From Candidatus Aminicenantes bacterium (lineage in GTDB: Bacteria; Acidobacteriota; Aminicenantia; Aminicenantales; Aminicenantaceae): 64,000 bases of DNA. Position numbers and translations under genes: made by a program. Below are positions 5,267 to 47,493 of this stretch, piece by piece. How positions within the stretch are numbered: position 1 is the stretch's first letter; every line of letters starts with the position of its first letter. Location of the stretch: positions 2,036 through 66,035 of the forward strand of contig WJMT01000129.1 in assembly GCA_014727835.1 (NCBI GenBank), read 5' to 3'. The notes beneath the pieces are model-generated. The model did not search any database, was not told the DNA's origin, and saw only the letters and a program-made list of their open reading frames with translations.

Positions 5267-5398
5267 TGAGGACTGTGTTTGAGGGAACTCAGCTTAGCTG
5301 AGCTTTGAGCATGTTTGACTCACGGACGGGGGGAGTTGAGCAGAATCCGAAAATACAGTGTGAGGAATAGCGTTAAAAATTCTTTAGCAAGCACAAGC

Positions 5399-5534
5399 AA
5401 TATGTATGCATATAATTTAGAGTCGTAACAGGAAATAAAGTTAAAGTTATATTTTTTGTGAACATGAAATTGTTAAGAGCTCTGATAATCATAAATTTGT
5501 ATGTTCATGCATACATATTTTATGAATAGTCCAG
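5399..5534 (+). mobile_element. Partial modular MITE-like element (IR-bounded cassette + right end TATGAATAGTCCAG)
   Basis: 13-bp IR AATATGTATGCAT 5399-5411 / ATGCATACATATT 5507-5519; end motif identical to 45092-45105; degenerate extra end at about 5105-5150. Confidence 0.65.
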
Positions 5535-5538
5535 AAAA

Positions 5539-6992: not shown

Positions 6993-7086
6993 ACTTTTGA
7001 AATCGCCCTAAGAACAGACTTCAGGACCTCTGGAATTTTTGCCTCAGGTTTGTTATAATGAACGCCTGATTTAGGAGTTAAAAATT

Positions 7087-7308
7087 ATGAAGAAGAAAAT
7101 TCACCCTGAATACAAAGAATGTGTGGTGACATGTGCTTGCGGAAATAGTTTCAAAACCCGTTCCAGCAAAGACCAAATAAGGGTTGAAATTTGTTCGCAG
7201 TGCCATCCCTTTTTCACCGGGAAACAAAAATTTGTAGACAGCGCTGGAAGAGTTGAAAAATTCCAGAAAAAGTACGGAAAGATCTCCCGGGAAAAAAAGA
7301 AAAAATAA
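7087..7308 (+). CDS. rpmE: 50S ribosomal protein L31 (Zn-binding type)
   Basis: [31 protein letters not shown]. Confidence 0.97.
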
Positions 7309-7311
7309 AAC

Positions 7312-8382: not shown

Positions 8383-8391
8383 TTTCTCACG

Positions 8392-9240: not shown

Positions 9241-9312
9241 GCGTGGATTTGTGGGGTGAGTTGCGTTTTGGATTCAAATGATGTATAAAAAGCCGAGGAG
9301 AAGAAGAGGAGA

Positions 9313-10434
9313 TTGAGGATGGCCGGTTCTTTGAAAGTGATGATCATTGTTGAAAACAATAGGCGCCGAAAGTCTATCAAAGATTTTCTGTCCCAATATT
9401 CATTTTTGATAGAAGAGGCATCTGAGTTTCCCAAAGCAGCGGATCAACTGTTGAGCGCCAACAGTTTTTCCATCATTCTGGTGGATTTTGAAGACAAAGA
9501 TAAACAAAAACTCAGCACCATTCAAAGCATCAAGAAGTTCAATCCCGAACTTGGTATCATTGTCCTTTCAGACCAAATGGATGCCAAATTTGCGGTCTCT
9601 TTGTATAAAAAAGGAATCGTCAGCCATGTGGTCAAACCAGATAACAAATCAGGATTGTTTTCTGCAATAAAAAATGAGCTGTTGAGACAAGACCTGGTGA
9701 GAGACAACAAGATGTATCAGGAACAAATCCAAGACATCAGAAATCAGTACGAGAAAAACCTCAGAAGAGCTCTGGACCTTGAAGAAATCTATGATTCCAC
9801 TTTGGAAAACCTGATGACCGCATTAGACCTGAGGGATGTGGAGACATTTGGACATTCCCGGACAGTGGCAAAATACAGCCAGGTTTTGGCTAAAATCATG
9901 GGAGTTGAAGACGTTCAAACTTTGGACAACATCAAAAAAGGAGCTTTGCTTCATGATGTGGGAAAAATCGCGATCCCGGATTCCATTCTCAAAAAGCCCG
10001 GTTCCCTGTCTGCTTCGGAATGGGACAAAATCAAACTTCATCCTTCTCTGGGATACGGACTGATTAAGGAAATCAAATTGGTTCAGGAGATCGGAAATAT
10101 CATTTTGTATCATCATGAGCATTTTGATGGAAAAGGATATCCCAACAACCTGAAAAAACAGGAGATTCCTCTGGAAGCCAGGATCTTTTCAGTTGCCGAT
10201 GCTCTGGATGCCATCACATCATATCGTCCGTATCGAAAAGAGCGGGATTTTCAGTATGCCAGAGAAGAAATCCAGAGAAAATCAGAGTCTCAATTTGATC
10301 CCAAGGTGGTGGATGCCTTCTGTTCAATGGAGGTGAAAAAGTGGGAAAAGATTCGGTATGAGAGCACCAAACTGATGCCTTTCTTTGAACACATGGCAAC
10401 TGTAACCTCTAAAAAAAGCCACCCCATTCAGTAA
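9313..10434 (+). CDS. Receiver-like domain + HD-GYP c-di-GMP phosphodiesterase
   Basis: GHS.., LLHDVGK, HHEHFDGKGYP, ADALDA..SYRPY. Confidence 0.9.
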   Translation: MRMAGSLKVMIIVENNRRRKSIKDFLSQYSFLIEEASEFPKAADQLLSANSFSIILVDFEDKDKQKLSTIQSIKKFNPELGIIVLSDQMDAKFAVSLYKKGIVSHVVKPDNKSGLFSAIKNELLRQDLVRDNKMYQEQIQDIRNQYEKNLRRALDLEEIYDSTLENLMTALDLRDVETFGHSRTVAKYSQVLAKIMGVEDVQTLDNIKKGALLHDVGKIAIPDSILKKPGSLSASEWDKIKLHPSLGYGLIKEIKLVQEIGNIILYHHEHFDGKGYPNNLKKQEIPLEARIFSVADALDAITSYRPYRKERDFQYAREEIQRKSESQFDPKVVDAFCSMEVKKWEKIRYESTKLMPFFEHMATVTSKKSHPIQ

Positions 10435-10639
10435 AACCCTCCCTGTCAATCTCACCTCTAAAGGGGAGACCTTTGCTTTGAATATCCCCCCCTTCTTTAC
10501 TCCCAAAAGAGTATTGTCATAAGTGCGTGTATTGGCTATAGTTAGGCACAGATGAGATGAGTTTCAAAATGAAAGGCCTATTGACACTTAAGAAAAACAT
10601 GAGGTATTGTATGATAAAAAGGGGACAGGAGAATTGATA

Positions 10640-11995
10640 ATGGAAAAAAAAGATGCGTTTTTAAAAAATTCGACTTCTATTATAGAAGAAGTGGAAGAGC
10701 AGCTGAGTAAAGTACTGGAGCAGAGAAGGAAAAAGATTGAAGCGGAGCTGGAAGAGACCATAAACAGGCAGAAACAAGAAGCTAAGAACAAAATCAGTGA
10801 ACTCGAGAATGAAGTCAATGAAGAAAAGGAAAGTCTGAATGAATACAAAACCCTGCTCTCTAATTTTGAACAGGAAAAAAACTCTATTAAGGATGAAATC
10901 AAGTCACATCTGAACACAGTGGTGAAGCTTCAGTCAGATATCGAATCCATTACCAAAAAATCTTTGGATGAGTTGAAAACCATAGATGATTTGAATAAAA
11001 AATTGGAAAATATCAATGATGATGCACTGGGGAAATTAGCCAGTTTGAGGAAGACATTAGAAGAAAAATATGGGATCGAAGCAGAGATCCCAGAAGAGGC
11101 GGGGCCTGTAGATGAGGATTTTGACCTTGACGAAGAGCTTCAGAAACTCAATAAAATCAAAGAGCTTTTGGGAGAAAACGGAAGTCAAGTGGTTCTCTCC
11201 GATTCCCTTTCCCAGCAGTTGGAAGACAACGAGCAAGAGAATGTTGAGACAGAAGCGAAAGAAGAAGAGGAAACCGAGGTTGAAATGCAGGAAGAAGACG
11301 CTGTGCAGGGCTCAGGACTCATGACCAAAGTTGAGAGTGAGGAGGAAGAAGTCAAAACCAAAGAGGAAGGCGAAGAAAAGGCAGAAGAAGAGGCGGAAGA
11401 AGAGGAGAAAGAAGAGGCGGAAGAAGCATCTGAAATGAAAGAAGCGGTTCAGGAAGAAGAAGACACAGAAGAGGAACAAGGAGACAAGGAAAAGGAAGAA
11501 GAAGGTCAGAGTGCCTATGATCAATTGGAAAAGTTCAGACAAACCGAGGGAAAACAAGACGAAGCCAAAGTGGTGTATTTTGAAAGCCAGGGAAAAATAA
11601 CTCTGGATTGCAAACATATCATTGATTCCATTGAGCAGAGCATTGAAAGTGCGCAGGGCCATTACAAAAAGCTGGAGGACACCAATTCACCTAAAGAGCA
11701 TTTCTTCATCAAACAGGAGATCATTCAGGCGCAGGAAAACACCCGAAAACTGATCTTGAACTGCCTGAGAGTCTGTGAGATGAAAGACTGCTTTTTTCCT
11801 AGCTCCACCCGTGACATACTCAATGGGGACAAGCTGAAGAGCATTCTGGAGAGAGTGAGCATGGAAAACTGGAGCAATCAGGATGACTTCAATGCTTTTT
11901 CCGATTTTTTCAATGAATTAAAGGACGAATTTCTTTCCAAAGCCACTCCTTTTGAGGAATATACGGAATCCATATTGAAAGAATTATCAGGATAA
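10640..11995 (+). CDS. Hypothetical coiled-coil protein with a long Glu-rich linker
   Basis: AGGAG RBS before ATG 10640; heptad-rich N-terminus; E/K-rich low-complexity middle; globular C-terminus. Confidence 0.7.
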   Translation: MEKKDAFLKNSTSIIEEVEEQLSKVLEQRRKKIEAELEETINRQKQEAKNKISELENEVNEEKESLNEYKTLLSNFEQEKNSIKDEIKSHLNTVVKLQSDIESITKKSLDELKTIDDLNKKLENINDDALGKLASLRKTLEEKYGIEAEIPEEAGPVDEDFDLDEELQKLNKIKELLGENGSQVVLSDSLSQQLEDNEQENVETEAKEEEETEVEMQEEDAVQGSGLMTKVESEEEEVKTKEEGEEKAEEEAEEEEKEEAEEASEMKEAVQEEEDTEEEQGDKEKEEEGQSAYDQLEKFRQTEGKQDEAKVVYFESQGKITLDCKHIIDSIEQSIESAQGHYKKLEDTNSPKEHFFIKQEIIQAQENTRKLILNCLRVCEMKDCFFPSSTRDILNGDKLKSILERVSMENWSNQDDFNAFSDFFNELKDEFLSKATPFEEYTESILKELSG

Positions 11996-35669: not shown

Positions 35670-36200
35670 TTATCTTTCGATTCCATCCCGAGCCGAAACT
35701 TTTTGGGTGTAATAATGTTTGATTTCTGTCATGTCTGTTACCAGATCTGCTCTCTTTATCAAAGATTTTGGGGCATGTCTTCCGGTTAAGATCACTTCGA
35801 CGTGATCCGGTCTTTGATCCAAAAAATCATGCACATTTTCTTCCCGTATGAGATTGAAATACATGGCCACATTGATCTCATCCAGAACAATGATATCAAA
35901 CAATCCTGAGAGCATGGCTTTCAAACAGGAATCAAGACCCTCTTCTGCTTTTTGAATATCTTGAGGGTCGGGATTTTTATTCACATGAATGAATGCATTC
36001 CTGCCGAACTGCTCCACCTTTACCAGAGGCTTCAGTCTTTCTAAGGATTTGAGTTCACCGTATTTTTGTCCTTTGATGAACTGACCGATATAGGTTTTGA
36101 GTCCATGACCTGCGGCTCTCAGGGCCAGTCCCAGAGCTGCGGTTGTTTTTCCCTTTCCCTGTCCCGTGTATATCTGGACCATACCTTTGAATTTTGTCAT
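35670..36200 (-). CDS. cobO: Cob(I)alamin/cob(I)yrinate adenosyltransferase
   Basis: [40 protein letters not shown]; start MTKFKG chosen. Confidence 0.9.
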
Positions 36201-36324
36201 GCTTGATTCCGTCATTGTTATGATATTTGAATCCAAGTTTATAGTCAATGATTCTGGCTCATTCATCAAATCACTGTTCTGCTTTGATTTCACATTTCCA
36301 CCCTATTGTAATATAATCCTTCAC

Positions 36325-37596
36325 ATGCTGGATATTAGATTTGTACAAGATAACGCGGATTTTGTCAGAAAAAAAATTTTGACCCGGGGAATCGATCTGA
36401 ACCTGTCCGGATTTCTCAAACTGGCTGAAGAAAAGAAGGAATATTTGGTAAAAATTGAAAAGCTTCGGCACAAACTGAACAAAAATTCAAAATTGATCGG
36501 TGAAATGAAGCGAAAAGGAGAGGATGCCGCCTCATTGATCAAAGAGATGAAGCAGGTATCTGATGAGATCAAGCAAAATGAGGATGAATTCAAAGACATT
36601 GAAGAACAAATCAGTGATGTGCTGCTGAACATCCCCAATATCCCTCACGAAACAGTGCCTGTGGGACCAGATGAGTCTTCGAACAAAGAATTGAGAAAAT
36701 CCGGGACTAAGCCGGAATTCAGTTTCCAGCCCAAACCTCATTGGGAGATCGGAGAAAAATTGGGGATCCTTGATTTCAAAAGAGCTGCCAAGCTGACAGG
36801 AGCCCGGTTTGCTGTTTACAAAGGATTGGGAGCCCGGCTGGAAAGAGCTTTGATCAATTTTATGCTGGATATTCACATCAAAGGCAACGAGTTTGAAGAG
36901 ACGCTTCCTCCGTTTATCGCCAATAAAGAGAGCTTGCTGGGCACTGGAAACCTTCCTAAATTTGAAGAAGATCTGTTTCAGCTCAAAGGATATGACTGGT
37001 ATTTGATCCCCACAGCTGAAGTGCCTCTCACCAATCTGTACCGGGATGAAATTCTCGAGGCAGATTCGCTTCCCCGGAGATATGTGGCCTACACTCCTTG
37101 TTTTCGAAGCGAAGCCGGATCTTACGGAAAAGATGTCCGCGGTCTCATCCGGCAGCACCAATTCAATAAGGTGGAGCTCATGAGCTTCACTCTTCCTGAA
37201 AACTCATACCAAGAGCTGGAAAAAATCACAGGTTATGCAGAGAAAGTACTGGAACAATTGGGGCTTCATTTCCGCGTGGTCAGCTTATGCACCGGAGAAC
37301 TGGGATTTGCCGGAGCCAAGACCTATGACCTCGAGCTCTGGATGCCGCAGCGGAATGATTATGTAGAGATCTCATCCTGCACCAACTGCGAGGCTTTTCA
37401 AGCCAGACGGGCCAACATCCGGTTCCGGAGAGATATAGAGTCCAAACCAGAATGGGTTCACACTCTCAATGGGTCTGGTGTGGCCGTGGGGCGCACAGTC
37501 AGTTCGATTCTGGAATCGTTTCAACGGGAGGATGGAAGTGTTGAGATTCCTGAAGTGCTGCACCCCTACATGAACGATGTCACTGAGATCACCTGA
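36325..37596 (+). CDS. serS: Serine--tRNA ligase
   Basis: MLDI start; coiled arm; LIPTAEV, CFRSEAG, RQHQF.KVE, EISSC, HTLNGSG. Confidence 0.96.
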
Positions 37597-37651
37597 TTTT
37601 TTGCCAATCTGAAGTGAAAATGCTAGACTATGATGACTCATATGAGCTGAT

Positions 37652-37738
37652 GGAGGGATGGCCGAGTGGCTGAAGGCGGCGGTCTTGAAAACCGCTTCAC
37701 GAGCAATCGTGACGGGGGTTCGAATCCCTCTCCCTCCG
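37652..37738 (+). tRNA. tRNA-Ser (TGA), CCA not encoded
   Basis: GGAGGGA..TCCCTCC acceptor stem; GCGGT-CTTGAAA-ACCGC anticodon arm; long variable arm. Confidence 0.95.
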
Positions 37739-37755
37739 TTTGAAATTTTTCGGGA

Positions 37756-38388
37756 TCATTTCAAGTATTTGAAAAAATAATCTGAAACTGGACCGTGTTC
37801 TTTCCAATTTTTGAATTCTGTTTCAGTCCAGTCATGGTTGCTGTAAGTCACTTTCATCCATTGAATCCGGTCCCTTTGGTCTACTCTGAATGCAATGGAT
37901 TTGTAGGTCAGATTTGAAGTTCCCTTGGGTTCAAGCCTATACTGATCCTTGCTCTCATCATAGGTGATCTCATAGTTATTCTTGATTTCTGTTTTGGTTT
38001 CACCGAGCACCGGGATCAGAAGACGGGGCATTCCTTGCTGGGAAGTCAGGTCTTCAAAATCATAGGCCTTCACTTCTCCCAGGTCATGATCGATGATGTG
38101 TATGGTCTGGCCGTCACAATACAGCTCATAGTTTTCATCCCCTTTGAGCTTGATCCGGAAAAAGTGGGGATATTTGTAGTGAAAGGTGCCGTGCAAAGAG
38201 ACCTCATCCACAAGAAACTCTGTGCTTTTGGTCTGCTTGATATCACAGGTGATCAGATTTTGATCTTTCAGCTGTTTTTCCCATTTGGTGAGAAGCTCAT
38301 CAATGTCCTGACTTAAGGAAAAATGAACAGTGAAGACAAAAAAAACAGACAAGAACAGCAAACAGAAAAAAATGGATTTAAATCTCAT
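37756..38388 (-). CDS. LolA-like periplasmic lipid/lipoprotein carrier
   Basis: Signal peptide MRFKSIFF; F.Q.K...L....G.F.YK.P..F, CDGQ, D.TETEF pattern; ATGA overlap with the MMPL gene; AAGGAG RBS. Confidence 0.75.
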   Translation of the reverse strand: MRFKSIFFCLLFLSVFFVFTVHFSLSQDIDELLTKWEKQLKDQNLITCDIKQTKSTEFLVDEVSLHGTFHYKYPHFFRIKLKGDENYELYCDGQTIHIIDHDLGEVKAYDFEDLTSQQGMPRLLIPVLGETKTEIKNNYEITYDESKDQYRLEPKGTSNLTYKSIAFRVDQRDRIQWMKVTYSNHDWTETEFKNWKEHGPVSDYFFKYLK

Positions 38389-40898
38389 AGGTGACTCCTT
38401 TTCAGAAAAGAGGGGAGAAGAAACATAGTGAAAAGCCAGCAGGCAAAAATTCCAAAGCTCACGATTTTTCCGGTGTTGGAAACCAAAGGGGAGGAAGAGA
38501 GCAAAAGGGTGAGAAAGCAAATCATGGTGGAAGCTGTGGTGAGGGTGAGCACCGGAGCGATCTCCCTGAGGATTTCAGAGATATCTTTGTCAGGGCTGCT
38601 TATTTTTCGGTGGATGAGATGCACAGAGTCGTCAATGCCGATTCCAATGACCATTGCCACCACTCCGATCAAGGCAGGAGAGAATCGAATGGACAAGAGA
38701 GTCACCAAAGCAAGAGTCAGAGGGATGGCCCCTATTAAGGGCAGCAGAGAGACCAATAATAATCGAATTTTTTTGAAGTATAACAAAAGGATGATGGAAA
38801 TGATTCCTCCGGCCCACAGGCTGATGGAAACGAAATCCCTTTTGATGATGGTGTTGACCGATTGGTGAACCTGATAAGTCCCTGTGAGCTGCTTTTCAAT
38901 ATAGGGGGGAGATGGAAGATTTTCCAGCTTCTCAGAAACACTGAGCAGAAGATCCTGTTTGGCCAGCTCTTTTTTTGGCCACACATAGGTCTGTAAAAAG
39001 AAATGCTTTCCCTGTTTTTTTATGAAGCGGGAGAAAGAAGGATGATCGGATAATGAAACCAGATTCTCCATTTTGAAAATCTCTTCCAAAAGGTCATAGT
39101 ATTCTTTATGACGGTCCAGGACACGGAATCCGGATCGGTTCATCTGTTTGAAAAAAAAGGAACGATTCTCTTTGATCCGGGAGGAAACATCACAGATCTG
39201 AGCCAGGCGGGCCTGCACCTGATCCTCAGGAACATAGAACATAGAGGGTGAATAAAATCCGGTAATTTTCTCTTCTTGAGCCAGTGCAATGAGGTGCTGA
39301 TCCAAATTTTTTTGATACTGCATTCCTTTGGAAAGCTGGTCTGTCTTGAGAGTGACTTGAGTGCTCAATATAAAGGAAGAACCAAATTTTTGGGAAACAT
39401 GCCGGGCGTTTGTAAGTGACGGGATATTCTGGGGGAGCAGTTTGAATAAAGACATATCGAATCTCAGATTCATCATCACCAGGATTGACAGAATGATGAT
39501 GCTGAAAGCAGCGATACGGCTGAAGTCTGTTTTTTTTAGGGACAGGCGGTACAAGATGCGGGGCAAAGCTCCTAAAGAGGTCAGCTTGACCTGAGCTGAG
39601 GAACGGGGCTTCAGCCACCTCACCACCGCGGGAAACAAGACCAGGGTCACAGTTAAAGACAGGAAAAGACTGATGCTTGTGAGCAGTCCGAACTGTCTGA
39701 GAGCAGGGTAGCGGGAAAAGCTCAACACCAGAAATCCGCAGGCTGTGGTGGTGATTCCTATGAATAAAGGGGGACCGCAGTCAGTCAGAGTGATTTGGAG
39801 AGCCTTATCCAGGGATTTTAGTTTTTTATGATATTGGAAAAAACGGCTGGATAAGTGGAAAGTGATATCCACTCCCAGGCCCAATACAATTGCAGCAAAT
39901 CCAATGGAGATCATTTTCAAAGGATTGAAAAACAGGCTTGCGACCAGAAGAGAGCCATACACAGAGAAAAAGATAGGAAGAAAACACATCAGGGTAACCT
40001 TCAGGTTTCTGAAGACCAGAATGAGCAGGGTGAAAATAAGGATCGATGAGATCACATTGATCACAAAGATTTCTTTATTCAGGATGGAATGGGTTTCTGC
40101 TGTGAGGCCGTATTTTCCTGCAAATTCACAGGTTATGGATTGAGAGCCCGGAAGAGATGATTTGATATGCATGATTTTTTCACTGATCTCTGTGGTGAGT
40201 TCAATGCAGTACTGAGTATCTTCCCCTGAACCGCGTGGCTGGGCAAAGATCAGGCGGGAAGACATGTCTTGTGAGTCAAAGTAAAAACTGTGTGGTGAAA
40301 TTTTGTAATTGGCCATAAAGTTTTTGAGCCAGGATTCAAGCAGCTCCCTGAGATGGAACACATCCACAGCAATCAGTTCTCTCAATCCGGGATGACCGGT
40401 CATCACGACCTGTTTTCGGGTTCGAATGATCTCTGTTTGGATTCCTTGTTCTGTGAATTTATCTGAAAACAAGGATAGATATTTGTCAGGATCTTGAAAA
40501 ATCACTGCCCGACACATTTGTACCAATTGGTCTTGCTCAGCCAAATCAAATAGTCCGGACTGCACATAACGGATCTCCTTCATGCCCGCAAGCTCTTGGA
40601 CCAATGCTTGAGTGAACTGATCTCTCACCTGCTCATCGGTCTGAGAATGCTTCTGCAGGAGGACCAGGGGAGTGCTCTCTCCGAATCTTTTGTAATTGTC
40701 TATAAAAAGCTTGAATTCTTTTCCGCGCAGACCTTTTGCGTCTAAAAGCATGGGTTCGATTTTTAAATTTTTCAAAAGCAGCGGCCCTGAGATCAGTACC
40801 AAGACGGAGACAAGAAGAATGATCCTGTGTTTTCTGTAAGAAAAGAGGGCCAGGGCAGAGAAGAAGCCAGTTATTTTTTTATAAAATTTAGGTTTCAT
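38385..40898 (-). CDS. MMPL/RND-superfamily lipid exporter
   Basis: Two TM repeats with GLGVD and GIGIDD motifs and large periplasmic loops. Confidence 0.88.
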   Translation of the reverse strand: MKPKFYKKITGFFSALALFSYRKHRIILLVSVLVLISGPLLLKNLKIEPMLLDAKGLRGKEFKLFIDNYKRFGESTPLVLLQKHSQTDEQVRDQFTQALVQELAGMKEIRYVQSGLFDLAEQDQLVQMCRAVIFQDPDKYLSLFSDKFTEQGIQTEIIRTRKQVVMTGHPGLRELIAVDVFHLRELLESWLKNFMANYKISPHSFYFDSQDMSSRLIFAQPRGSGEDTQYCIELTTEISEKIMHIKSSLPGSQSITCEFAGKYGLTAETHSILNKEIFVINVISSILIFTLLILVFRNLKVTLMCFLPIFFSVYGSLLVASLFFNPLKMISIGFAAIVLGLGVDITFHLSSRFFQYHKKLKSLDKALQITLTDCGPPLFIGITTTACGFLVLSFSRYPALRQFGLLTSISLFLSLTVTLVLFPAVVRWLKPRSSAQVKLTSLGALPRILYRLSLKKTDFSRIAAFSIIILSILVMMNLRFDMSLFKLLPQNIPSLTNARHVSQKFGSSFILSTQVTLKTDQLSKGMQYQKNLDQHLIALAQEEKITGFYSPSMFYVPEDQVQARLAQICDVSSRIKENRSFFFKQMNRSGFRVLDRHKEYYDLLEEIFKMENLVSLSDHPSFSRFIKKQGKHFFLQTYVWPKKELAKQDLLLSVSEKLENLPSPPYIEKQLTGTYQVHQSVNTIIKRDFVSISLWAGGIISIILLLYFKKIRLLLVSLLPLIGAIPLTLALVTLLSIRFSPALIGVVAMVIGIGIDDSVHLIHRKISSPDKDISEILREIAPVLTLTTASTMICFLTLLLSSSPLVSNTGKIVSFGIFACWLFTMFLLPSFLKRSHL

Positions 40899-43077
40899 AA
40901 TTGAAATTGAGCAGACCTGTGATCATCAGTTTGATTTGAATTTTTGCCTCGGTCATAGGGATGACTCGGGAGAGTTTTTTCCATTCTTTGTCAATCATGT
41001 CTGCCGCTTCTTTTTTGCATAGGGCGAGAACTCCGGAGTTGTAAATCAAGTCTGTAGCAGCAGCCAGTTGTTCCGGTTCCTTTCTCCTTTTTTTTGAACA
41101 CAAAATCGACAACAGGATCTCTGACTCTTTGTTCTCTAAACACTGGATGGCTCTGTGAATGACATAGGTCAGTTTTCCAGAAGAAATGTCTTCTCCGGGT
41201 TTTTTGGTCCATTCCGGAGATTTACTGAAGTTGTGTATGTCATCGATAATCTGGAAAGCAGTGCCAAACGCAGCGGCCATGGCTCTGTATCTCTGTCTGA
41301 CCTGATCGCTGGATTTGGCAATCACACAGGCTGCCTCACTGCCTCCCACTACAGCAGCTCCTGTTTTTTGTGCATACATCTGTAAGATCTTATCTTCCAG
41401 AGAGTCCTCACTCCAAGTTTTATAATGGTCTTTGGTTAAGTATTTAGACCAGTAAATGTCCATGGCCTGGCCAAAATGGGCTTGGATCATGGTTTGGTTT
41501 GTGATCTCAAGCAATTTTCTTTTCTGGTCTTCATTGAGAAGTGAATTGTTCTGGATCAAAAGCGTTGGCAGAAAATACAATATGCATCCGGCATTGATGG
41601 CAACATCTTTCCCGTACTTCAGATGCAGGCATTTTTCACCTCTTCGGATAAGGGATTTGTCTTCAATATCATCGATAATCAGGGCTCCGGTGTGGTTGAG
41701 TTCCAATGTGCTGCAGATCAATGTTTCATAAGGTTTGGGGTCCACACCCAGAGATTCCAAGGCCAGAAGCCCGAATACAGGCCTCCATCTTTTTCCTTTC
41801 CTGGAAATCAGGTCCCAAACAGGTTCGGAAAGCACAGACGTCAAAGCCTCAGGGTCGTGTTTCCATAGTGGTTTTCCCGCGAACTGTTCCATATGCGAGC
41901 TTTTGATTTTTTTCGGCAGAAATGATTCGATGACCCGGTCAATTTTTTGGGAGAAGGCTTGGAGATGCTTTTTGTAATCAAACAGATAGCCATAACCGTG
42001 CAATTCCAAACGGGCTCTTCCGGAAATGTCCTGACCGTCAATGGATCCTCTCACTTCTCCAGCACCTTCCCAGATGGCACGGATAACTCCAAAAAAAGGG
42101 ATTTCCTGGTCCTGATGAAAGGGAGTAAAATGGAGCTGGGCTTTGAGTTCTGGAATGGTGATCTTCCATTGGATCGGATAGATGATGTGTGAGTGGGGGC
42201 TTTCCCAAAAGCCGGTGGGCTCCATGATGATATCATTGAGGGCTCGTGAAGGAGAACCAATGGGACGGTACAATCCTCCCTGTTTGATGAGCTTATTTGA
42301 TTCCATATCCCTGTGTGCAGTGACCACCATGTCAGAACCATCATTCAAGTTGATCCCGATCCAGTCCCATCCCAGATACCTTTTTTCGTCAAGTTTTTCA
42401 ATGAACCAGTTGTTGAAATCACCCCATTGATGGTCCATCCATGCGTTACCTTTCACCGTCAGAGAATTGATTTTCCCTGATAAATTCATTCGGGGATACG
42501 TGTTGTAGCAAGTCGTTTCCAGGTTGGGCAGGTCACGATCATGAAGATGTATGACTTTTTGCTGAGGGATTAATTTCAATTGGATGAATTTTTGACTTGA
42601 AGGAGCCTTGAATGACAAGTGGAAAGCCTGGCTCTTTTGCACCAAAGAAAAATCACCCCAGCGAATTGTGAGCGGTTTGCCTTTTAGGTCAACAGGATCT
42701 GAGATAACTTTTATGGGAGAGGGAGGTCCGTAAGTTTTGATTTCCTTCATATAAGCTTGAAAGAGAACAGGATCCAGATTTCCTGATTCCTCTTGAAGGA
42801 GAAGAAAGGTCTCATTCAAATTTTTAAGAACATCTCGGTGAATCTGGCTGATAGAGTGAGAAACATTTTTTTTCAGGTCCAGATTAGAACAAATGAGATA
42901 AAACACCTGTTTGTCTTTTTCAGGAGGATCTTTTTTGATTTTTTGGCGGAACAAAGAGAGCATAAAATAGTTCTTATCAATCTGGGATCCTTCAAAAAAT
43001 CCTTGAAAAAACCACCATTCCAGAGGAGTCTCAAAATGAGGGGACTCGTCAGCTAGCTTCACATTTTTTTCTTTCAA
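40888..43077 (-). CDS. Fusion of AttH/CrtC lipocalin-like domain and polyprenyl diphosphate synthase
   Basis: N-terminal EWWF, WMDHQWG, GWDW, YPIQW, DQE, WEG, ELHGY; C-terminal GKRWRP, IIDDIED.S..RRG, GQAMDIYW, KTG, FQIIDD, ED...GK. Confidence 0.85.
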   Translation of the reverse strand: MKEKNVKLADESPHFETPLEWWFFQGFFEGSQIDKNYFMLSLFRQKIKKDPPEKDKQVFYLICSNLDLKKNVSHSISQIHRDVLKNLNETFLLLQEESGNLDPVLFQAYMKEIKTYGPPSPIKVISDPVDLKGKPLTIRWGDFSLVQKSQAFHLSFKAPSSQKFIQLKLIPQQKVIHLHDRDLPNLETTCYNTYPRMNLSGKINSLTVKGNAWMDHQWGDFNNWFIEKLDEKRYLGWDWIGINLNDGSDMVVTAHRDMESNKLIKQGGLYRPIGSPSRALNDIIMEPTGFWESPHSHIIYPIQWKITIPELKAQLHFTPFHQDQEIPFFGVIRAIWEGAGEVRGSIDGQDISGRARLELHGYGYLFDYKKHLQAFSQKIDRVIESFLPKKIKSSHMEQFAGKPLWKHDPEALTSVLSEPVWDLISRKGKRWRPVFGLLALESLGVDPKPYETLICSTLELNHTGALIIDDIEDKSLIRRGEKCLHLKYGKDVAINAGCILYFLPTLLIQNNSLLNEDQKRKLLEITNQTMIQAHFGQAMDIYWSKYLTKDHYKTWSEDSLEDKILQMYAQKTGAAVVGGSEAACVIAKSSDQVRQRYRAMAAAFGTAFQIIDDIHNFSKSPEWTKKPGEDISSGKLTYVIHRAIQCLENKESEILLSILCSKKRRKEPEQLAAATDLIYNSGVLALCKKEAADMIDKEWKKLSRVIPMTEAKIQIKLMITGLLNFNYET

Positions 43078-43244
43078 TGATATTTGGCATTAATATACCA
43101 GCAGGGGAATATATTGCAACTTTTGTTTATCACACAAAGAAAAAAAATATTTTTTTTGAGCTCTTTTTATGGAAGAGAAGGAATCCCCAGGGGAATGATC
43201 TAACAAATCCCGCCACTTGTTTGCGAATGGTCCGGGGCCGTGAT

Positions 43245-44168
43245 TTATTCCAAAATATTCAAAGCAGAAGGAAGAATAGAGGCTTGAAAATCTCTAATCC
43301 CAGGAATGATTTGGCCGTCGTATTGAATATTGATCGGCTCTTGAGAAGAGACTGAAAAACTTTTATTTTGGAGATACCGAATTTCTTTTTTGTGCTTGTG
43401 TTTTTGCCTCCATACAGAGTAAGCAAACCGGGCTGTGTGCATGAAAGAAGTGGTGTGAATGATGCTGCAGTCCAGTTTTCCGTCAAAGGGAGAGGCCCAA
43501 GGACACACCCTCAGTCCTCCGGCATAACAAGGAACATTGGAAAAGACCACAATGGAAGATTCAATATTGTGTGTGGAGTCATCTGAGGACAATTGAATTT
43601 TCATGGGAATGTTTTGATGCTGGAAGGAATGGCGGGCTCCTAAAAAACCAGCCCAGACCTGGATGAGTTTTCCGTATTTAGCCCGCAGGGGATGTTGCTT
43701 CCAGTAATGAGCCACAAATTGATTGATGGTGGCCCCCAGGCCTAGACTGAGAGAACCCACGAAATAAATTTTTTCTGACCTTCCTTTTATTTCCAGTAAA
43801 CCAAGGTCCATCTGCCGGGTTTTGCTCTCCAGCAAAGATTGGATTGTAGAATCAACGGAATGGATTCCAAGAGACATGGCAATGTCATTGGCAGAACCCG
43901 TGGGCATGAGATACAGAGTGGGTTGATAGGGGCTTTTGTGAATCTCAGAAGCAGCGATCTGAAAGGAGGTATCCCCACCCACGACCAGAATGACTTGGAA
44001 TGACCTGGCTTTTTCTTGAGCCAGCTGTCTGAAGTGGTTTTCTGATCGGGAACAGAACCATTGGAAAGGTATGGAGTTCTGCTTTAACAGGGCTTTGATG
44101 CGGTCTTCTTTTTTTAAGGACAGCCCCCGCCCAGAGGACGGATTGAACAGAATGGCCATTTTGTCCAT
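43245..44168 (-). CDS. Diacylglycerol/lipid kinase family (DAGK_cat, YegS/DgkB-like) with variant motifs
   Basis: NPSSG, GGDTS, PTGSAND, YAGG, DGKLD, YDGQ. Confidence 0.82.
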   Translation of the reverse strand: MDKMAILFNPSSGRGLSLKKEDRIKALLKQNSIPFQWFCSRSENHFRQLAQEKARSFQVILVVGGDTSFQIAASEIHKSPYQPTLYLMPTGSANDIAMSLGIHSVDSTIQSLLESKTRQMDLGLLEIKGRSEKIYFVGSLSLGLGATINQFVAHYWKQHPLRAKYGKLIQVWAGFLGARHSFQHQNIPMKIQLSSDDSTHNIESSIVVFSNVPCYAGGLRVCPWASPFDGKLDCSIIHTTSFMHTARFAYSVWRQKHKHKKEIRYLQNKSFSVSSQEPINIQYDGQIIPGIRDFQASILPSALNILE

Positions 44169-44398: not shown

Positions 44399-44444
44399 AA
44401 AAAAGCCCTGCATCCCTTAAACCAAAAAGGGACAGGGCTTTTTT
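44399..44444. terminator. Bidirectional intrinsic terminator
   Basis: A-run-AGCCCTG..TCCCT..AGGGA-CAGGGCT-T-run between convergent genes. Confidence 0.75.
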
Positions 44445-44766
44445 AATCGATGTAGCCTAAATCTTTCAGTTTTTTTACGATGACCTCTCTGTCTTGAGGT
44501 TCCAGTTTCCGGTTGACTGGAATATCAGAGAGAGGATGGTCTTTCTTTCCGAATTTGATCTTATTCCATATTCTTTCATGCAGGTAATAAAACAGAATTT
44601 TAGCAATGACCTCCACCAATCCCACTCCTATGGACAGAAAAATTTCTTTGGTGAAGAGATAGACAATGGTCATAGTAGTGAGGGTGGCCACTACCCGCCA
44701 GCTGATGGATTTGAATACTGTTCGAGTGTGGTCTATGATGTCGATTCTGCGGTTGGGTTTGTTCAT
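44443..44766 (-). CDS. DUF2061-type small membrane protein
   Basis: R...KSISWR...T..T, K...YYLHERIW....G motif. Confidence 0.8.
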   Translation of the reverse strand: MNKPNRRIDIIDHTRTVFKSISWRVVATLTTMTIVYLFTKEIFLSIGVGLVEVIAKILFYYLHERIWNKIKFGKKDHPLSDIPVNRKLEPQDREVIVKKLKDLGYID

Positions 44767-45165: not shown

Positions 45166-45259
<94 letters not shown>

Positions 45260-46464: not shown

Positions 46465-47493
46465 ATGATCAGAGAAAACGAATATAAAATCTTGGATGAG
46501 TACCTGGAGCTTTCCCTGTTTGCTGACGTTGAACTGGGATTGGCTGCTGCCCAAAAAATAGATGAAGCGATGGAACATGTGATGGAGAAAATCGGGGAAA
46601 TGCTCTCACCGCTCAGCTGGTCGCTCATTTTGTATGATTCGCAGAGAGATGTGCTCTTTTTCAAGAAAACAAAAGGAAAAAGTGCAAACAGATTAGAAGG
46701 AAAAGATATCCCAAAACGCAAAGGTCTGGCTAGCTGGATTTTTAAAAATGCAAAGCCCCTTTTGGTTATAGATGTCTCCAAAGAATCCAAATTTCATCCT
46801 TATATCAATAAATTGACCGGATTTAAGGCCCGCTCTGTATTAGGGATTCCCCTCAAAGTGAAGGAGAATGTGATAGGAATCATTGAACTGATTGACAAAA
46901 CCACCAAGGAGAGATTCGGAGAGAGTGATTTGAAGATCCTGCAGACGATCACTGACTATGCTGTTCTGGCCGTGGAAAAAATATATTATTTGGGGGCAAT
47001 AGAGAACATGTCAAGAATCGAGCCTTTGACCGGTCTGCTCAACCCCAGACATTTTGTCAAAGTGGCGGAAAGAGAAAGTGAAAGATGCAAGCGCTATGGA
47101 CGGCCTTTGACTCTGATGACCCTAAGCATTGAAAATTTGGAAGAAATTCATAGGAAAAACGGATCTGAGTTCAGAGATACGATGCTCAAGAATCTGGCAG
47201 ATATTCTCAAAAACAATATAAGAAAAATCGACACTCCGTGCAGATATAAGGAGAATGAATTTTTCGTCCTGATGCCAAACACAAAAAAGCATGAAGCGGA
47301 AAATGTGAGACAGAGGATCATCAAGCTCTCTAAGAAAAAATCAGACAAGAAAAAGAAAAAACAGGTCCCTTATGACTTAGACATCGAACTAAAGTCCGTG
47401 GATTCGAAAAATGTCTCAGAGCTCCAAGAGATGATTTCCAAAGAATTCAACCTTGGGGATAAAAAAAAGAAAAAACCTTTGAAAAAAAGCTGA
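46465..47493 (+). CDS. GAF + degenerate GGDEF protein
   Basis: GAF (G.GLASW..PL, TGF..RS.L..PL); PLTGLLN; RKID I-site followed by RYKENEF instead of GGDEF. Confidence 0.82.
   Translation: MIRENEYKILDEYLELSLFADVELGLAAAQKIDEAMEHVMEKIGEMLSPLSWSLILYDSQRDVLFFKKTKGKSANRLEGKDIPKRKGLASWIFKNAKPLLVIDVSKESKFHPYINKLTGFKARSVLGIPLKVKENVIGIIELIDKTTKERFGESDLKILQTITDYAVLAVEKIYYLGAIENMSRIEPLTGLLNPRHFVKVAERESERCKRYGRPLTLMTLSIENLEEIHRKNGSEFRDTMLKNLADILKNNIRKIDTPCRYKENEFFVLMPNTKKHEAENVRQRIIKLSKKKSDKKKKKQVPYDLDIELKSVDSKNVSELQEMISKEFNLGDKKKKKPLKKS

What the first reader, a model, noticed from the sequence alone, without database searches (positions are those of the whole stretch)
37756..44168. Candidate undescribed isoprenoid-lipid synthesis and envelope-export system (kinase / AttH-prenyl synthase / MMPL / LolA-like)
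Seen: four co-oriented genes between tRNA-Ser and the micro-ORF. The last three overlap (11 nt, and ATGA), implying translational coupling; the kinase is 167 bp upstream and may be separately transcribed. Known: MMPL/HpnN-type RND proteins export lipids such as hopanoids and mycolates, and MMPL + LolA-like pairs accompany aryl-polyene/dialkylresorcinol and sterol-transport loci. No squalene/phytoene synthase, squalene-hopene cyclase, desaturase or PKS gene is adjacent. Inference: a compact pathway that builds a polyprenyl chain, hydrates or cyclises it, and ships the product across the periplasm, giving an unknown terpenoid membrane lipid or signal in an anaerobe.
Basis: partly seen in the sequence, partly recalled or inferred. 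Interest (0 to 1): 0.82.

Follow-up and report, generated by a model that had tools for sequence, protein, structure and literature searches.

The report
Terpenoid-lipid synthesis and export cassette
Three overlapping genes in an uncultured sediment-type bacterium appear to make a C20 isoprenoid lipid, modify it with a water-adding (AttH/CrtC-like) domain, and carry it to the outer membrane; the enzyme fusion is widespread in bacteria and I found no paper describing it.

Summary
In detail: the coordinates, gene identities, the 11-nt and ATGA overlaps and the 167-bp gap all hold.

The functional unit has three genes, not four. They are an AttH/CrtC-fold domain fused to a type-III-like GGPP synthase, an HAE3/MMPL RND pump, and an accessory LolA. 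Same-genus genomes that lack these three genes keep the lipid kinase at the same site.

The prenyl synthase carries the residues that limit yeast GGPP synthase to C20, so a long polyprenyl chain is unlikely. Carotenoids and squalene are unlikely substrates, because 5 of 6 fusion-bearing relatives have no phytoene/squalene synthase.

The fusion occurs in many phyla. Outside this genus it sits beside MacB-type ABC exporters plus LolA-like proteins, beside other MMPLs, or beside a lycopene-cyclase-like membrane protein. Chloroflexi encode MMPL::AttH single proteins. A cyanobacterium and a myxobacterium encode sulfotransferase–glycosyltransferase–AttH–prenyl-synthase giants.

A complex model docks the LolA paralogue on the pump's periplasmic head (0.61, best control 0.00).

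Best reading: oxygen-independent synthesis and export of a hydroxylated C20 terpenoid lipid. The product itself is inferred. Six effective literature searches found no description.

The parts
41983..43077 (-). N-terminal AttH/CrtC-fold double-lipocalin domain of the fusion protein (residues ~1-365). No signal peptide, so it is cytoplasmic. The alternative start is the GTG at 43062.
   Evidence: Pfam CrtC_N 51.9 bits and Lipocalin_9 81.8 bits. Profile hit to AttH 2ich, E 4.7e-31. Foldseek hits to 2ich (E 4.7e-17) and kievitone hydratase 7a0t (E 4.6e-12). W213, W237 and W239 are kept in 120/120 family members and D215 in 119/120. The database homologue is 724 aa long.
40888..41982 (-). C-terminal trans-prenyl diphosphate synthase domain of the fusion (residues ~366-729). 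It is type-III-GGPPS-like and the predicted product is C20.
   Evidence: Pfam polyprenyl_synt 175 bits. Best single-sequence PDB hits are yeast GGPPS 2dh4 and the prenyltransferase domains of fungal bifunctional diterpene synthases. D469, D470, D473 and D613 are kept in 120/120, D612 in 116/120, Y501 in 119/120, F502 in 115/120 and H534 in 119/120.
38385..40898 (-). HAE3/MMPL-family RND transporter (837 aa). Its start overlaps the fusion gene's end by 11 nt.
   Evidence: Pfam MMPL 88.8 bits and Sterol-sensing 42.3 bits. NCBIfam HAE3 181.4 bits and HpnN 153.6 bits, both below their cut-offs. The GxGxD (D344) and GIGIDD (D756/D757) motifs are invariant in 4 of 4 orthologues.
37756..38388 (-). 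Accessory LolA-family periplasmic carrier (210 aa). It has a hydrophobic signal-like N-terminus and its start overlaps the MMPL stop (ATGA).
   Evidence: Pfam LolA 50.8 bits. The best NCBIfam hit is LolA2_flexi at 54.3 bits, below its cut-off. A better-scoring LolA (81.2 bits) lies elsewhere in the genome. In the complex model it docks on periplasmic loops of the MMPL: ipSAE 0.61, best control 0.00.
43092..43119 (-). Promoter-like site (TTGCAA-16 nt-TATATT with a TG) in the gap between the kinase and the fusion gene. It is a candidate promoter for the cassette alone.
   Evidence: Consensus scan and the sequence itself. This is a consensus match only. The region holds 22 such sites against 11.9 +/- 3.5 in shuffles.
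43245..44168 (-). DAGK/YegS-type lipid kinase. It is a conserved neighbour, not part of the cassette.
   Evidence: Pfam DAGK_cat and YegS_C. It is present at the same site next to tRNA-Ser(tga) in G001, G002, G003 and G008, which lack the fusion, MMPL and LolA there.
44443..44766 (-). DUF2061 membrane protein. It is a conserved neighbour of the kinase, not part of the cassette.
   Evidence: Pfam DUF2061 66.8 bits. It is present in the cassette-less genomes G002 and G008.
37651..37739 (+). tRNA-Ser(tga). It marks one edge of the site where the cassette is present or absent.
   Evidence: ARAGORN. In cassette-less genomes the kinase stop lies roughly 70-200 bp from this tRNA.
45166..45259 (+). 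tRNA-Ser(gct). It marks the far boundary of the kinase/DUF2061 block.
   Evidence: ARAGORN.

Best explanation
The unit is a three-gene, probably translationally coupled cassette: fusion, MMPL, LolA.

1. The C-terminal domain of the fusion is a type-III-like geranylgeranyl diphosphate synthase. It condenses IPP onto an allylic primer and stops at C20. Residues are shown; the product is inferred.
2. The N-terminal AttH/CrtC-fold domain lies in the cytoplasm on the same polypeptide. It takes the geranylgeranyl chain into the cavity between its two beta-barrels. There it protonates a trisubstituted double bond with Asp215, and water quenches the cation. The result is a tertiary alcohol made without O2. 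This step is inferred from conserved residues and from characterised relatives: CrtC, kievitone hydratase and archaeal Hgs.
3. The HAE3/MMPL pump, driven by the proton-motive force, extracts the resulting lipid from the inner membrane.
4. The pump hands the lipid to the dedicated LolA paralogue, which carries it across the periplasm to the outer membrane. This is inferred from synteny, from fusion proteins in other organisms and from a complex model.

The adjacent DAGK-type kinase is a resident neighbour of the insertion site and is not needed for the system. How the diphosphate is removed, and what the final head group is, remain unknown.
For: Cassette boundaries
- The fusion, MMPL and LolA overlap.
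- MMPL orthologues occur in G000 and G004-G007, which are the fusion-bearing genomes of the genus, and in none of G001, G002, G003 and G008.

C20 synthase
- FARM, SARM and the GQxxDxxW motif align to yeast type-III GGPPS.
- Small residues (Gly464, Ala465) occupy positions -5 and -4 before the FARM.
- The yeast chain-length stops Tyr107, Phe108 and His139 (passages of PMC9729869) align to Y501, F502 and H534. These are kept in 119, 115 and 119 of 120 family members.
- A geranylgeranyl-reductase-family gene overlaps the start of the fusion gene in two Rhizobiaceae loci. TIGR02032 scores 167.4 against a cut-off of 158.8.

Hydratase
- The fold matches AttH and kievitone hydratase.
- The motif W213-x-D215...W237-x-W239 is kept in 119-120 of 120 members.
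- A stand-alone AttH-family protein has the same Asp-to-WxW spacing (+15/+17) as the published RgCrtC D268, W283 and W285.
- AttH-type enzymes hydrate isoprenoid double bonds to tertiary alcohols, including C20 chains and GDGT lipids.
- Proteins in Tolypothrix and a Polyangiaceae MAG add a glycosyltransferase and a sulfotransferase to the same AttH-synthase module. That implies a hydroxyl acceptor.

Export
- A MacB-type permease or an MMPL lies within 3 kb of the fusion in 11 of 24 close-clade loci. Only 3 of 24 have one in the larger flank 3-10 kb away.
- LolA or LolA_like proteins accompany them in 5 loci.
- MMPL::AttH single proteins occur in 3 Chloroflexi loci.
- The organism has Omp85-family proteins, 6 matches, so it has an outer membrane.
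- It also has a separate, better-scoring LolA.
- Complex model of MMPL with LolA: ipSAE 0.61, best of 3 controls 0.00. That mark was reached by 58 of 80 solved complexes and 2 of 110 mismatched pairs. The runs agree in at least 88% of contacts, the partner's pLDDT is at least 74, and the contacts fall on MMPL residues 89-90, 155-177 and 590-592. My own 4-row alignments were used, so the calibration holds only roughly.
Against: - No product has been observed and no RNA data were available.
- The His of the CrtC H239-x-W241 pair is not conserved; tyrosines stand in that region (my own counting).
- CrtC Tyr266 is Trp here.
- The mapping to RgCrtC rests on motif spacing and a 7-residue insertion. 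It is not a direct alignment, because I held no RgCrtC sequence.
- RgCrtC converts geranylgeraniol poorly, 4%.
- No phosphatase or transferase in the cassette explains the fate of the diphosphate.
- About half of the close-clade loci (13 of 24) have no exporter within 3 kb.
- G010 has the MMPL-LolA pair without the fusion.
- The AttH family was first proposed to be a lipid binder or transport component, not an enzyme (PMC2954199).
Confidence: 0.5

Rival explanations
1. The AttH domain is not an enzyme. It is a lipocalin-type binding and hand-off module that receives the prenyl product from the synthase and presents it to the exporter. On this reading the exported lipid is an unmodified geranylgeranyl derivative.
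For: The structural-genomics paper on AttH (2ich) proposed lipid binding or transport and noted the link with LolD-like ABC transporters. In a Burkholderia plasmid a stand-alone attH lies in an operon with an ABC ATPase and a large permease. MMPL::AttH fusions in Chloroflexi have no prenyl synthase in the locus.
Against: The Asp and Trp residues at the positions that are catalytic in CrtC are kept in 119-120 of 120 members. Every characterised member of the fold is a hydratase: CrtC, kievitone hydratase and Hgs. Glycosyltransferase and sulfotransferase domains fused to the module suggest that a hydroxyl is created.
Confidence: 0.2
2. The AttH domain works as a proton-initiated, class-II-like terpene cyclase on GGPP. 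After Asp215 protonates the terminal double bond, a neighbouring double bond captures the cation instead of water. The exported lipid is then a cyclic diterpenoid.
For: The CrtC mechanism is explicitly compared with squalene-hopene cyclase. The domain order matches that of fungal cyclase-GGPPS bifunctional enzymes, whose prenyltransferase domains are among the best sequence hits. A lycopene-cyclase-like membrane protein neighbours the fusion in L020, L023, L025 and L052, and neighbours the MMPL-LolA pair in G010. The fusion-specific invariant basic residues H216, R333 and R356 could hold a diphosphate.
Against: No member of the AttH fold is known to cyclise. The separate cyclase-like neighbour suggests that cyclisation, where it occurs, is done by another protein.
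Confidence: 0.12
3. The lipid kinase acts in the pathway, for example by phosphorylating the isoprenoid alcohol.
For: The kinase is co-oriented and 167 bp upstream. It belongs to a lipid-kinase family. A kinase homologue lies about 6.8 kb from the fusion in L026, a MAG labelled Aminicenantes.
Against: The kinase is retained at the same site in 4 genus genomes without the cassette. A promoter-like site lies between the kinase and the fusion. Kinase homologues lie within 8 kb of the fusion in only 5 of 40 loci, three of them from the window's own genus.
Confidence: 0.08
4. The cassette is a carotenoid module. The fusion is CrtE plus CrtC, a GGPP synthase plus a carotenoid 1,2-hydratase, and the pump and LolA move hydroxy-carotenoids to the outer membrane.
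For: The Pfam name is CrtC. G000 has a crtI-crtB-crtE-lycopene cyclase cluster on contig C44. Lycopene_cyc-like genes neighbour the fusion in four loci.
Against: SQS_PSY was found in 1 of 41 relatives, G000 only. The fusion-bearing G004-G007 and G035 (83-93% complete) lack it, and so does the isolate Desulfatitalea alkaliphila. Using G000's proteins as queries, no CrtB or CrtI homologue lies within about 10 kb of the fusion in any locus fetched. Antarctobacter has both a separate high-scoring PF07143 protein and the fusion.
Confidence: 0.05
5. The MMPL-LolA pair is a general lipid or lipoprotein transporter that merely sits beside the fusion, with no shared substrate.
For: G010 carries a 35%-identical MMPL with an overlapping LolA but no fusion. 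13 of 24 close-clade fusion loci have no exporter within 3 kb.
Against: The pair and the fusion co-occur perfectly within the genus, 5 of 5 against 0 of 4. The reading frames overlap. Exporters are enriched next to the fusion across phyla, with two non-homologous transporter types. MMPL::AttH fusion proteins exist.
Confidence: 0.08

Closest known systems
Hopanoid export by the RND transporter HpnN with periplasmic shuttles (HpnM/HpnS, lipocalin-like HpnT)
   Same: An HAE3/MMPL-type RND pump encoded beside isoprenoid-lipid biosynthesis genes, thought to move a terpenoid from the inner to the outer membrane through a small periplasmic carrier (PMC12324291, passages). The window's pump matches the HpnN models.
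   Different: It scores far below the HpnN cut-offs (153.6 against 751.85; 86.2 against 1100). No squalene-hopene cyclase scores above its cut-off in the genome. The carrier is a LolA paralogue, not MlaC-like or DUF2147. The predicted lipid is an acyclic or simple C20 terpenoid, not a C30-C35 hopanoid.
AttH-fold isoprenoid hydratases: carotenoid 1,2-hydratase CrtC, fungal kievitone hydratase, archaeal hydroxy-GDGT synthase Hgs
   Same: The same double-lipocalin fold and Pfam families. The Asp and Trp residues at the CrtC catalytic positions are conserved. The chemistry is cofactor- and O2-independent addition of water to a trisubstituted isoprene double bond.
   Different: Here the domain is fused to a prenyl diphosphate synthase and lies in the cytoplasm. 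Tyr266 is replaced by Trp and the His of the HxW pair is absent. Carotenoid and GDGT substrates are unavailable in most carriers.
Fungal bifunctional terpene synthases (cyclase domain plus type-III GGPPS domain, e.g. PvCPS copalyl diphosphate synthase and variediene synthase)
   Same: The order is the same: an N-terminal terpene-modifying domain and a C-terminal type-III-like GGPP synthase. Their prenyltransferase domains are among the best sequence matches (8v0f, E 1.2e-19; 6v0k).
   Different: The N-terminal domain here is an all-beta AttH fold, not an alpha-helical terpene cyclase, and the host is bacterial.
MMPL/RND plus LolA-like pairs of flexirubin and aryl-polyene loci, and the sterol transporter BstABC
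   Same: A lipid-pigment or sterol biosynthesis locus carrying its own RND pump and a LolA-type periplasmic carrier. The window's LolA best matches the flexirubin LolA2 model and the pump also matches BstA.
   Different: All these scores fall below the family cut-offs (LolA2_flexi 54.3 against 125; BstA 84.2 against 1400). The cargo is isoprenoid and is made by a different enzyme. That flexirubin and aryl-polyene loci carry such pairs is recalled, apart from the NCBIfam model names.
AttEFGH-type operons: MacB/LolCDE-like ABC transporter with a secreted AttH protein
   Same: The AttH fold is linked to an envelope exporter (Burkholderia plasmid operon; genome context in PMC2954199). Relatives of the window's fusion sit beside MacB-type permeases in 7 loci.
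   Different: In those operons AttH is a separate protein. The two Rhodobacteraceae AttH-family proteins I extracted have signal-peptide-like N-termini. In the window the domain is cytoplasmic, fused to a synthase, and the exporter is an RND pump.

Membership tests
trans-Isoprenyl diphosphate synthase (PF00348), type-III GGPP synthase subtype | Pfam model above its cut-off, with FARM (DDxxD) and SARM motifs | tested here: met
   175 bits against a cut-off of 27. The FARM is DDIED (D469, D470, D473) and the SARM is DDIHN (D612, D613). Both align to yeast GGPPS DDIED and DDYLN. They are kept in 116-120 of 120 members.
trans-Isoprenyl diphosphate synthase (PF00348), type-III GGPP synthase subtype | Small residues at positions -4 and -5 before the FARM, and the Tyr/Phe/His triad that stops elongation at C20 | tested here: met
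   G464 and A465 precede the FARM. Y501, F502 and H534 align to yeast Y107, F108 and H139. They are kept in 119, 115 and 119 of 120 members.
trans-Isoprenyl diphosphate synthase (PF00348), type-III GGPP synthase subtype | The product is GGPP in an enzyme assay | not testable with these tools
   Needs an in-vitro assay or heterologous expression. No NCBIfam equivalog cut-off is reached; the best is 108.2 against 450.
AttH-like hydratase fold (PF07143 CrtC_N + PF17186 Lipocalin_9) | Both Pfam domains above their cut-offs, and a double-lipocalin fold | tested here: met
   51.9 against 22.5 and 81.8 against 26.2. The AF2 model has mean pLDDT 88.7 and pTM 0.88. Foldseek finds 2ich (E 4.7e-17) and 7a0t (E 4.6e-12).
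AttH-like hydratase fold (PF07143 CrtC_N + PF17186 Lipocalin_9) | A catalytic Asp with flanking aromatic residues (RgCrtC Y266-x-D268, W283, W285) and the H239-x-W241 pair | tested here: inconclusive
   W213-x-D215 and W237-x-W239 are kept in 119-120 of 120 members. The mapping to RgCrtC goes through the spacing in a stand-alone AttH protein. Tyr is replaced by Trp, and tyrosines stand in for His/Trp. No RgCrtC sequence was available for a direct alignment.
Carotenoid 1,2-hydratase CrtC proper | Acts in a carotenoid pathway, so phytoene synthase and desaturase are present in the genome or locus | tested here: not met
   SQS_PSY was found in 1 of 41 relatives. It is absent from 5 of 6 fusion-bearing genomes and from Desulfatitalea. 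No crtB or crtI lies in any fusion locus fetched.
Hopanoid transporter HpnN | Equivalog score above the cut-off, and hopanoid biosynthesis (SHC) in the genome | tested here: not met
   TIGR03480 scores 153.6 against 751.85 and NF052374 scores 86.2 against 1100. The best SHC match is 18.5 bits, below the 26.1 cut-off, in a genome that is 92% complete.
MMPL/HAE3 RND transporters | MMPL Pfam domain above its cut-off, with conserved Asp-bearing transmembrane motifs in both halves | tested here: met
   MMPL scores 88.8 against 20.5, in two stretches. D344 and D756/D757 are invariant in 4 of 4 orthologues. The HAE3 subfamily model scores 181.4, below its cut-off of 351.9.
Housekeeping lipoprotein chaperone LolA | LolA equivalog score above the cut-off, and the sole essential copy in the genome | tested here: not met
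   The Pfam LolA domain is present (50.8 against 23.6). TIGR00547 scores 53.2 against 112. A better LolA (81.2 bits) lies on contig C115. In the same-genus genomes G001, G002, G003 and G008 the cassette site holds no LolA-like gene; I did not search the rest of those genomes for one.
YegS/BmrU/DAGK lipid kinases (for the neighbouring kinase) | DAGK catalytic and YegS_C domains, with the subfamily score above its cut-off | tested here: inconclusive
   The Pfam domains are met (67.9 and 54 bits). TIGR00147 scores 95.6, below its cut-off of 118.65. The substrate is unknown.

The most novel reading that the evidence does not exclude
The AttH::GGPP-synthase fusion defines a widespread, unrecognised bacterial pathway found in many phyla, many of them anaerobes. 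A beta-barrel AttH domain acts directly on the nascent C20 diphosphate. It works either as an O2-independent hydratase or as a new, non-alpha-helical kind of proton-initiated terpene cyclase. The product is a dedicated envelope terpenoid lipid. Different lineages glycosylate and sulfate it, or cyclise it, and export it to the outer membrane with interchangeable machines: MMPL+LolA, MacB-ABC+LolA-like, or DevBCA-like.
Probability: 0.3. Interest if true: 0.8.

Novelty: new variant of a known kind. Interest (0 to 1): 0.62.

Why it matters
Bacterial envelope terpenoids such as hopanoids, carotenoids and sterols tune membranes and leave geochemical biomarkers. For each class, the question of how it reaches the outer membrane has been opened only recently.

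This cassette points to a further class: a C20 alcohol-type terpenoid made without oxygen, with its own pump and periplasmic carrier.

The enzyme fusion occurs in many phyla, mostly uncultured. It also occurs in cultured strains, including Desulfatitalea alkaliphila, Antarctobacter jejuensis, Flavobacterium, Streptomyces and Tolypothrix. The idea is therefore directly testable by lipidomics and genetics.

If it holds, three things follow:
- a product would be assigned to the proteins of this family, which their sources label only as 'polyprenyl synthetase family protein' or GGPP synthase (348 clusters matched, the best 120 of them fusions);
- the AttH fold would gain a bacterial function;
- there would be a clean example of non-homologous exporters (RND versus MacB-ABC) serving the same lipid pathway.

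Tried and rejected
- Four-gene unit including the kinase: rejected. The kinase stays at the site in four genus genomes without the cassette.
- Carotenoid or squalene substrate: rejected.
- Long-chain polyprenyl or quinone side-chain synthase: rejected on the type-III motifs and the Y/F/H triad.
- HpnN membership: rejected on scores and the lack of SHC.
- Housekeeping LolA: rejected.
- A 51-residue tblastn match to the fusion next to tRNA-Ser in G001 overlaps the tRNA gene. I do not use it as evidence of a deletion remnant, so the direction of the event (gain or loss) is left open.
- Search for longer fused forms in the protein database: 3797 candidates, none scored. This is weak evidence. The long forms I report came from loci.
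- Expression: no RNA holder listed. Only one DNA run, labelled sediment metagenome, held a small share (0.08) of the words.
- Literature: eight searches ran. One search returned only unrelated CRTC papers. One search served only the chain-length residues. None of the other six found a paper describing an AttH/CrtC-prenyl synthase fusion or its link to MMPL/LolA. Subscription journals and supplements are not covered, and I did not ask for supplements.
- I gave the window stretch in the wrong orientation. That alignment is used only for the three cassette-less genomes.
- In one search my simple ORF picker returned shadow frames for three GC-rich loci (L119-L121). Only L122 and L123 were usable, and only L122 went into the alignment.
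- In one search my distance rule dropped genes that overlap the fusion gene's ends: the lycopene-cyclase-like genes of L025 and L052 and the MacB permease of L052. It also placed the L036 MMPL (about 2.9-3.1 kb away) in the outer zone. The inner counts are therefore slight undercounts.
- Loci dropped before the neighbour counts: of 46 loci with a full-length fusion, 6 were removed as duplicates of the same places (L001, L003, L004, L005, L007, L017), leaving 40. L038 (Cohaesibacter) and L039 (a MAG labelled Methanoregula) have the fusion split over two frames and were not counted as full-length.

Full report
**What is there**

Four co-oriented minus-strand ORFs lie at the stated coordinates.
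- A DAGK/YegS-type lipid kinase (43245-44168).
- A 729-aa protein with CrtC_N plus Lipocalin_9 domains at the N-terminus and a polyprenyl synthase at the C-terminus (40888-43077).
- An MMPL/HAE3 RND transporter (38385-40898).
- A LolA-family protein (37756-38388).

All are above the Pfam cut-offs. The fusion and MMPL overlap by 11 nt. MMPL and LolA overlap by ATGA. The kinase lies 167 bp upstream.

The LolA-like protein starts with a hydrophobic signal-like segment. The fusion has none.

The flanks are housekeeping genes and two tRNA-Ser genes. The window lies in a 3.1-Mb, 132-contig genome bin that is 92% complete with 2.8% contamination. The bin has six Omp85-family matches, so the organism has an outer membrane.

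Taxonomy is uncertain. The closest named homologue of the fusion is labelled Candidatus Aminicenantes (61% identity). A same-genus contig is labelled 'uncultured Eubacteriales'.

**The unit has three genes, not four**

I searched 41 related genomes, G000 included.
- A full-length fusion occurs in G000, G004, G005 and G006. In G007 it is cut by two contig ends. G035 has one at 34% identity.
- G002 has only N-domain fragments with stops, on another contig.
- The other 34 genomes have only ordinary prenyl-synthase matches.

MMPL orthologues (63-65% identity) occur in exactly G000 and G004-G007.

I fetched the site in the cassette-less genus members. G001, G002, G003 and G008 all keep SerRS, tRNA-Ser(tga) and the kinase. 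G002 and G008 also keep DUF2061. tRNA-Ser(gct) is seen wherever the contig reaches. In each case the kinase stop lies roughly 70-200 bp from the tRNA, and there is no fusion, MMPL or LolA.

G004 and G006 have the full arrangement of the window.

So the fusion-MMPL-LolA block, about 5.3 kb, is a presence/absence cassette next to a resident kinase. A promoter-like site in the kinase-fusion gap fits separate transcription, but it is only a consensus match.

**The synthase domain**

As single-sequence PDB matches, the C-terminal half is closest to two groups: yeast type-III GGPP synthase, and the prenyltransferase domains of fungal bifunctional diterpene synthases. The profile search puts an archaeal GGPP synthase first.
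- The FARM (LIIDDIEDKSLIRRG), the GQxxDxxW motif and the SARM (DDIHN) align to the yeast motifs.
- Positions -5 and -4 before the FARM are Gly and Ala.
- The three yeast residues that stop elongation at C20 are Tyr107, Phe108 and His139 (passages of PMC9729869, which cites Chang et al. 2006). They align to Y501, F502 and H534.
- Over 120 full-length family members, window included, these three are kept in 119, 115 and 119. The Asp and Arg residues of the motifs are kept in 116-120.

I therefore predict GGPP, not a long polyprenyl chain.

In keeping with this, a geranylgeranyl-reductase-family gene overlaps the start of the fusion gene in two Rhizobiaceae loci.

**The AttH domain**

AlphaFold2 gives a confident two-domain model (pLDDT 88.7, pTM 0.88). 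Its N-terminal half matches AttH (2ich) and kievitone hydratase (7a0t).

The published catalytic residues of R. gelatinosus CrtC are H239, W241, Y266 and D268 (PMC4717167, passages), together with D268, W110, W283 and W285 (PMC12402844, passages).

I had no RgCrtC sequence, so the mapping is indirect. A stand-alone AttH-family protein from a Rhodobacteraceae genome scores 208 bits on PF07143. It shows W-x-D followed by W-x-W at +15/+17, the same spacing as D268, W283 and W285. The fusion aligns to it with a 7-residue insertion.

That makes D215 the Asp equivalent, W213 the equivalent of Tyr266, and W237/W239 the Trp pair. They are kept in 119-120 of 120 members. The His of the HxW pair is not kept.

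Three basic residues are invariant in the fusion family but differ in the secreted AttH: H216, R333 and R356. They could bind a diphosphate. This is my inference.

**What the relatives do**

Characterised relatives add water to trisubstituted isoprene double bonds without cofactors or O2.
- RgCrtC hydrates C12-C20 terpenes at the terminal prenyl unit, although geranylgeraniol is converted only to 4%.
- An archaeal AttH-like protein makes hydroxy-GDGTs (bioRxiv 10.1101/2025.10.20.683597, passages).

**Not a carotenoid enzyme**

G000 does carry a crtI-crtB-crtE-lycopene cyclase cluster on another contig. However, SQS_PSY was found in only 1 of 41 relatives. The other five fusion-bearing genomes lack it, and so does the isolate Desulfatitalea alkaliphila.

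No CrtB or CrtI homologue lies in any of the fusion loci fetched. No squalene-hopene cyclase scores above its cut-off in G000.

**Distribution and neighbours**

The protein database returned 348 matches among the 8000 candidates scored. All 120 listed carry PF00348 plus PF17186, and 116 also carry PF07143. The source labels span many phyla.

A scan of species-representative genomes kept 80 loci. Of these and the relatives' loci, 40 non-duplicate loci hold a full-length fusion. Twenty-four of the 40 are at least 33% identical to the window's protein.

The kinase-fusion-MMPL-LolA order is found only in the window's genus. The theme of an adjacent exporter, however, recurs.
- MacB-type permease plus ABC ATPase: seven loci (L020, L024, L026, L028, L032, L033, L052), labelled as six different lineages. 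L026, L028 and L052 also have a LolA_like (PF17131) protein.
- L026, a MAG labelled Aminicenantes, reads LolA_like, ATPase, permease, fusion on one strand.
- MMPL genes abut the fusion in Desulfatitalea (L029) and Cohaesibacter (L038). One lies about 3 kb away in Antarctobacter (L036). Two follow the distant Streptomyces homologue (L059).

An exporter lies within 3 kb in 11 of 24 close-clade loci (125 kb of flank examined). It lies 3-10 kb away in only 3 of 24 (216 kb examined). Three of the 11 belong to the window's genus, so they are not independent.

A lycopene-cyclase-like membrane protein neighbours the fusion in L020, L023, L025 and L052. In G010, a 35%-identical MMPL with an overlapping LolA but no fusion sits beside the only such gene of that genome.

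On plasmids, a Tolypothrix homologue is flanked by DevB-like, DevC and ABC ATPase genes. A Streptomyces canus homologue is flanked by an ABC transporter. A stand-alone Burkholderia attH closes an operon with an ABC ATPase and a permease. This matches the genome context noted for AttH in PMC2954199.

**Fusion proteins elsewhere that link the parts**

Three Chloroflexi loci encode single proteins with an MMPL transporter followed by a C-terminal AttH domain (L087, L089, L097). This ties the fold physically to this transporter family.

The Tolypothrix protein (1509 aa) and a Polyangiaceae protein (1520 aa) carry four parts in one chain: a sulfotransferase, a GT28/EryCIII-type glycosyltransferase, the AttH domains and the prenyl synthase. 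That is what one expects if the AttH-synthase module supplies a hydroxylated terpenoid acceptor.

**Pump and carrier**

The window's LolA is an accessory paralogue. A better LolA lies elsewhere in the genome, and it scores below the LolA equivalog cut-off.

A complex prediction of MMPL residues 22-835 with LolA residues 27-210 gave these results.
- ipSAE 0.61 against 0.00 for the best of three controls.
- That mark was reached by 58 of 80 solved complexes and 2 of 110 mismatched pairs.
- The runs agree in at least 88% of contacts, and the partner's pLDDT is at least 74.
- The contacts fall on MMPL residues 89-90, 155-177 and 590-592, which are periplasmic by the usual MMPL topology.

The model supports binding but does not show it. 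My own 4-row alignments were used, so the calibration holds only roughly.

**Verdict**

The finding is real and the general idea is supported: isoprenoid-lipid synthesis coupled to envelope export. The details change in three ways. The unit has three genes, the chain is C20, and the kinase is a bystander.

The components belong to known families, and the logic resembles hopanoid (HpnN), sterol (BstABC) and flexirubin/aryl-polyene export. None of those family tests is met.

I found no description of the AttH::GGPP-synthase fusion or of its export partners in the searches listed under Tried and rejected. The product, the catalytic role of the AttH domain and the fate of the diphosphate are inferred, not shown.

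Noticed in passing
L118 (G000 contig C44, locus coordinates 5926-11309): The same genome bin carries a compact carotenoid cluster: fatty-acid-hydroxylase-like gene, IspH, CrtI-like desaturase, phytoene/squalene synthase, a second prenyl synthase, and a two-domain lycopene cyclase. SQS_PSY and this cyclase were found in no other of the 40 relatives searched (G010's single Lycopene_cyc match is a different, divergent gene). The cluster is therefore either a recent acquisition or a mis-binned contig. Its GC content is 45-48%, similar to the window.
   Followed up: partly
L087:7547-11011, L089:7082-10651, L097:7070-10549: Chloroflexi MAGs encode single proteins of about 1155-1190 aa made of an MMPL transporter followed by a C-terminal AttH (CrtC_N + Lipocalin_9) domain. 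With my query, no prenyl synthase was found in the locus.
   Followed up: partly
L099:6097-10626 (Tolypothrix sp. PCC 7601 plasmid) and L051:7058-11617 (Polyangiaceae MAG): Giant proteins of about 1510-1520 aa combine sulfotransferase, glycosyltransferase, AttH and polyprenyl synthase domains. The cyanobacterial one is flanked by DevB-like, DevC and ABC ATPase genes and by IS701 transposases. This suggests an exported sulfated terpenoid glycoside.
   Followed up: partly
L128 (G010 contig C208): 4639-5304, 5301-7829, 8069-8782: A genome of another genus has an MMPL (35% identical) with an overlapping LolA gene. A lycopene-cyclase-like gene, the only one in that genome, lies divergently beside them. 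There is no AttH-synthase fusion.
   Followed up: partly
L018 (G002 contig C14) about 5281-6360: A same-genus genome holds only fragments of the fusion's AttH half (residues about 6-375) in three frames with stops. They lie away from the tRNA-Ser site, and no MMPL, LolA or kinase is nearby. It is a decayed copy.
   Followed up: partly
L122 and L123 (Rhodobacteraceae genomes G089, G061); G041 contigs C3 and C27: 23 of 61 Rhodobacteraceae genomes sampled have a PF07143 match, 21 of them at about 180-210 bits. The two proteins I extracted (L122, L123) are about 358 aa and have signal-peptide-like N-termini. Antarctobacter jejuensis has both such a high-scoring protein and the cytoplasmic fusion, so the two are not redundant.
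   Followed up: partly
L039:4697-6929: A MAG labelled Methanoregula (an archaeon) carries a 45%-identical copy of the fusion, split over two overlapping frames. This could be a frameshift, a mis-binned contig or a transfer. I did not examine it.
   Followed up: no
window 37651-37739 and 45166-45259: Two different tRNA-Ser genes (tga and gct) bracket the kinase/DUF2061/cassette block, next to the seryl-tRNA synthetase gene (36166-37596). The arrangement is conserved across the genus.
   Followed up: partly
window 46465-47493: A GAF-GGDEF diguanylate cyclase follows a DUF711 gene just beyond the block. It is conserved in position in the genus. I saw no link to the cassette.
   Followed up: no
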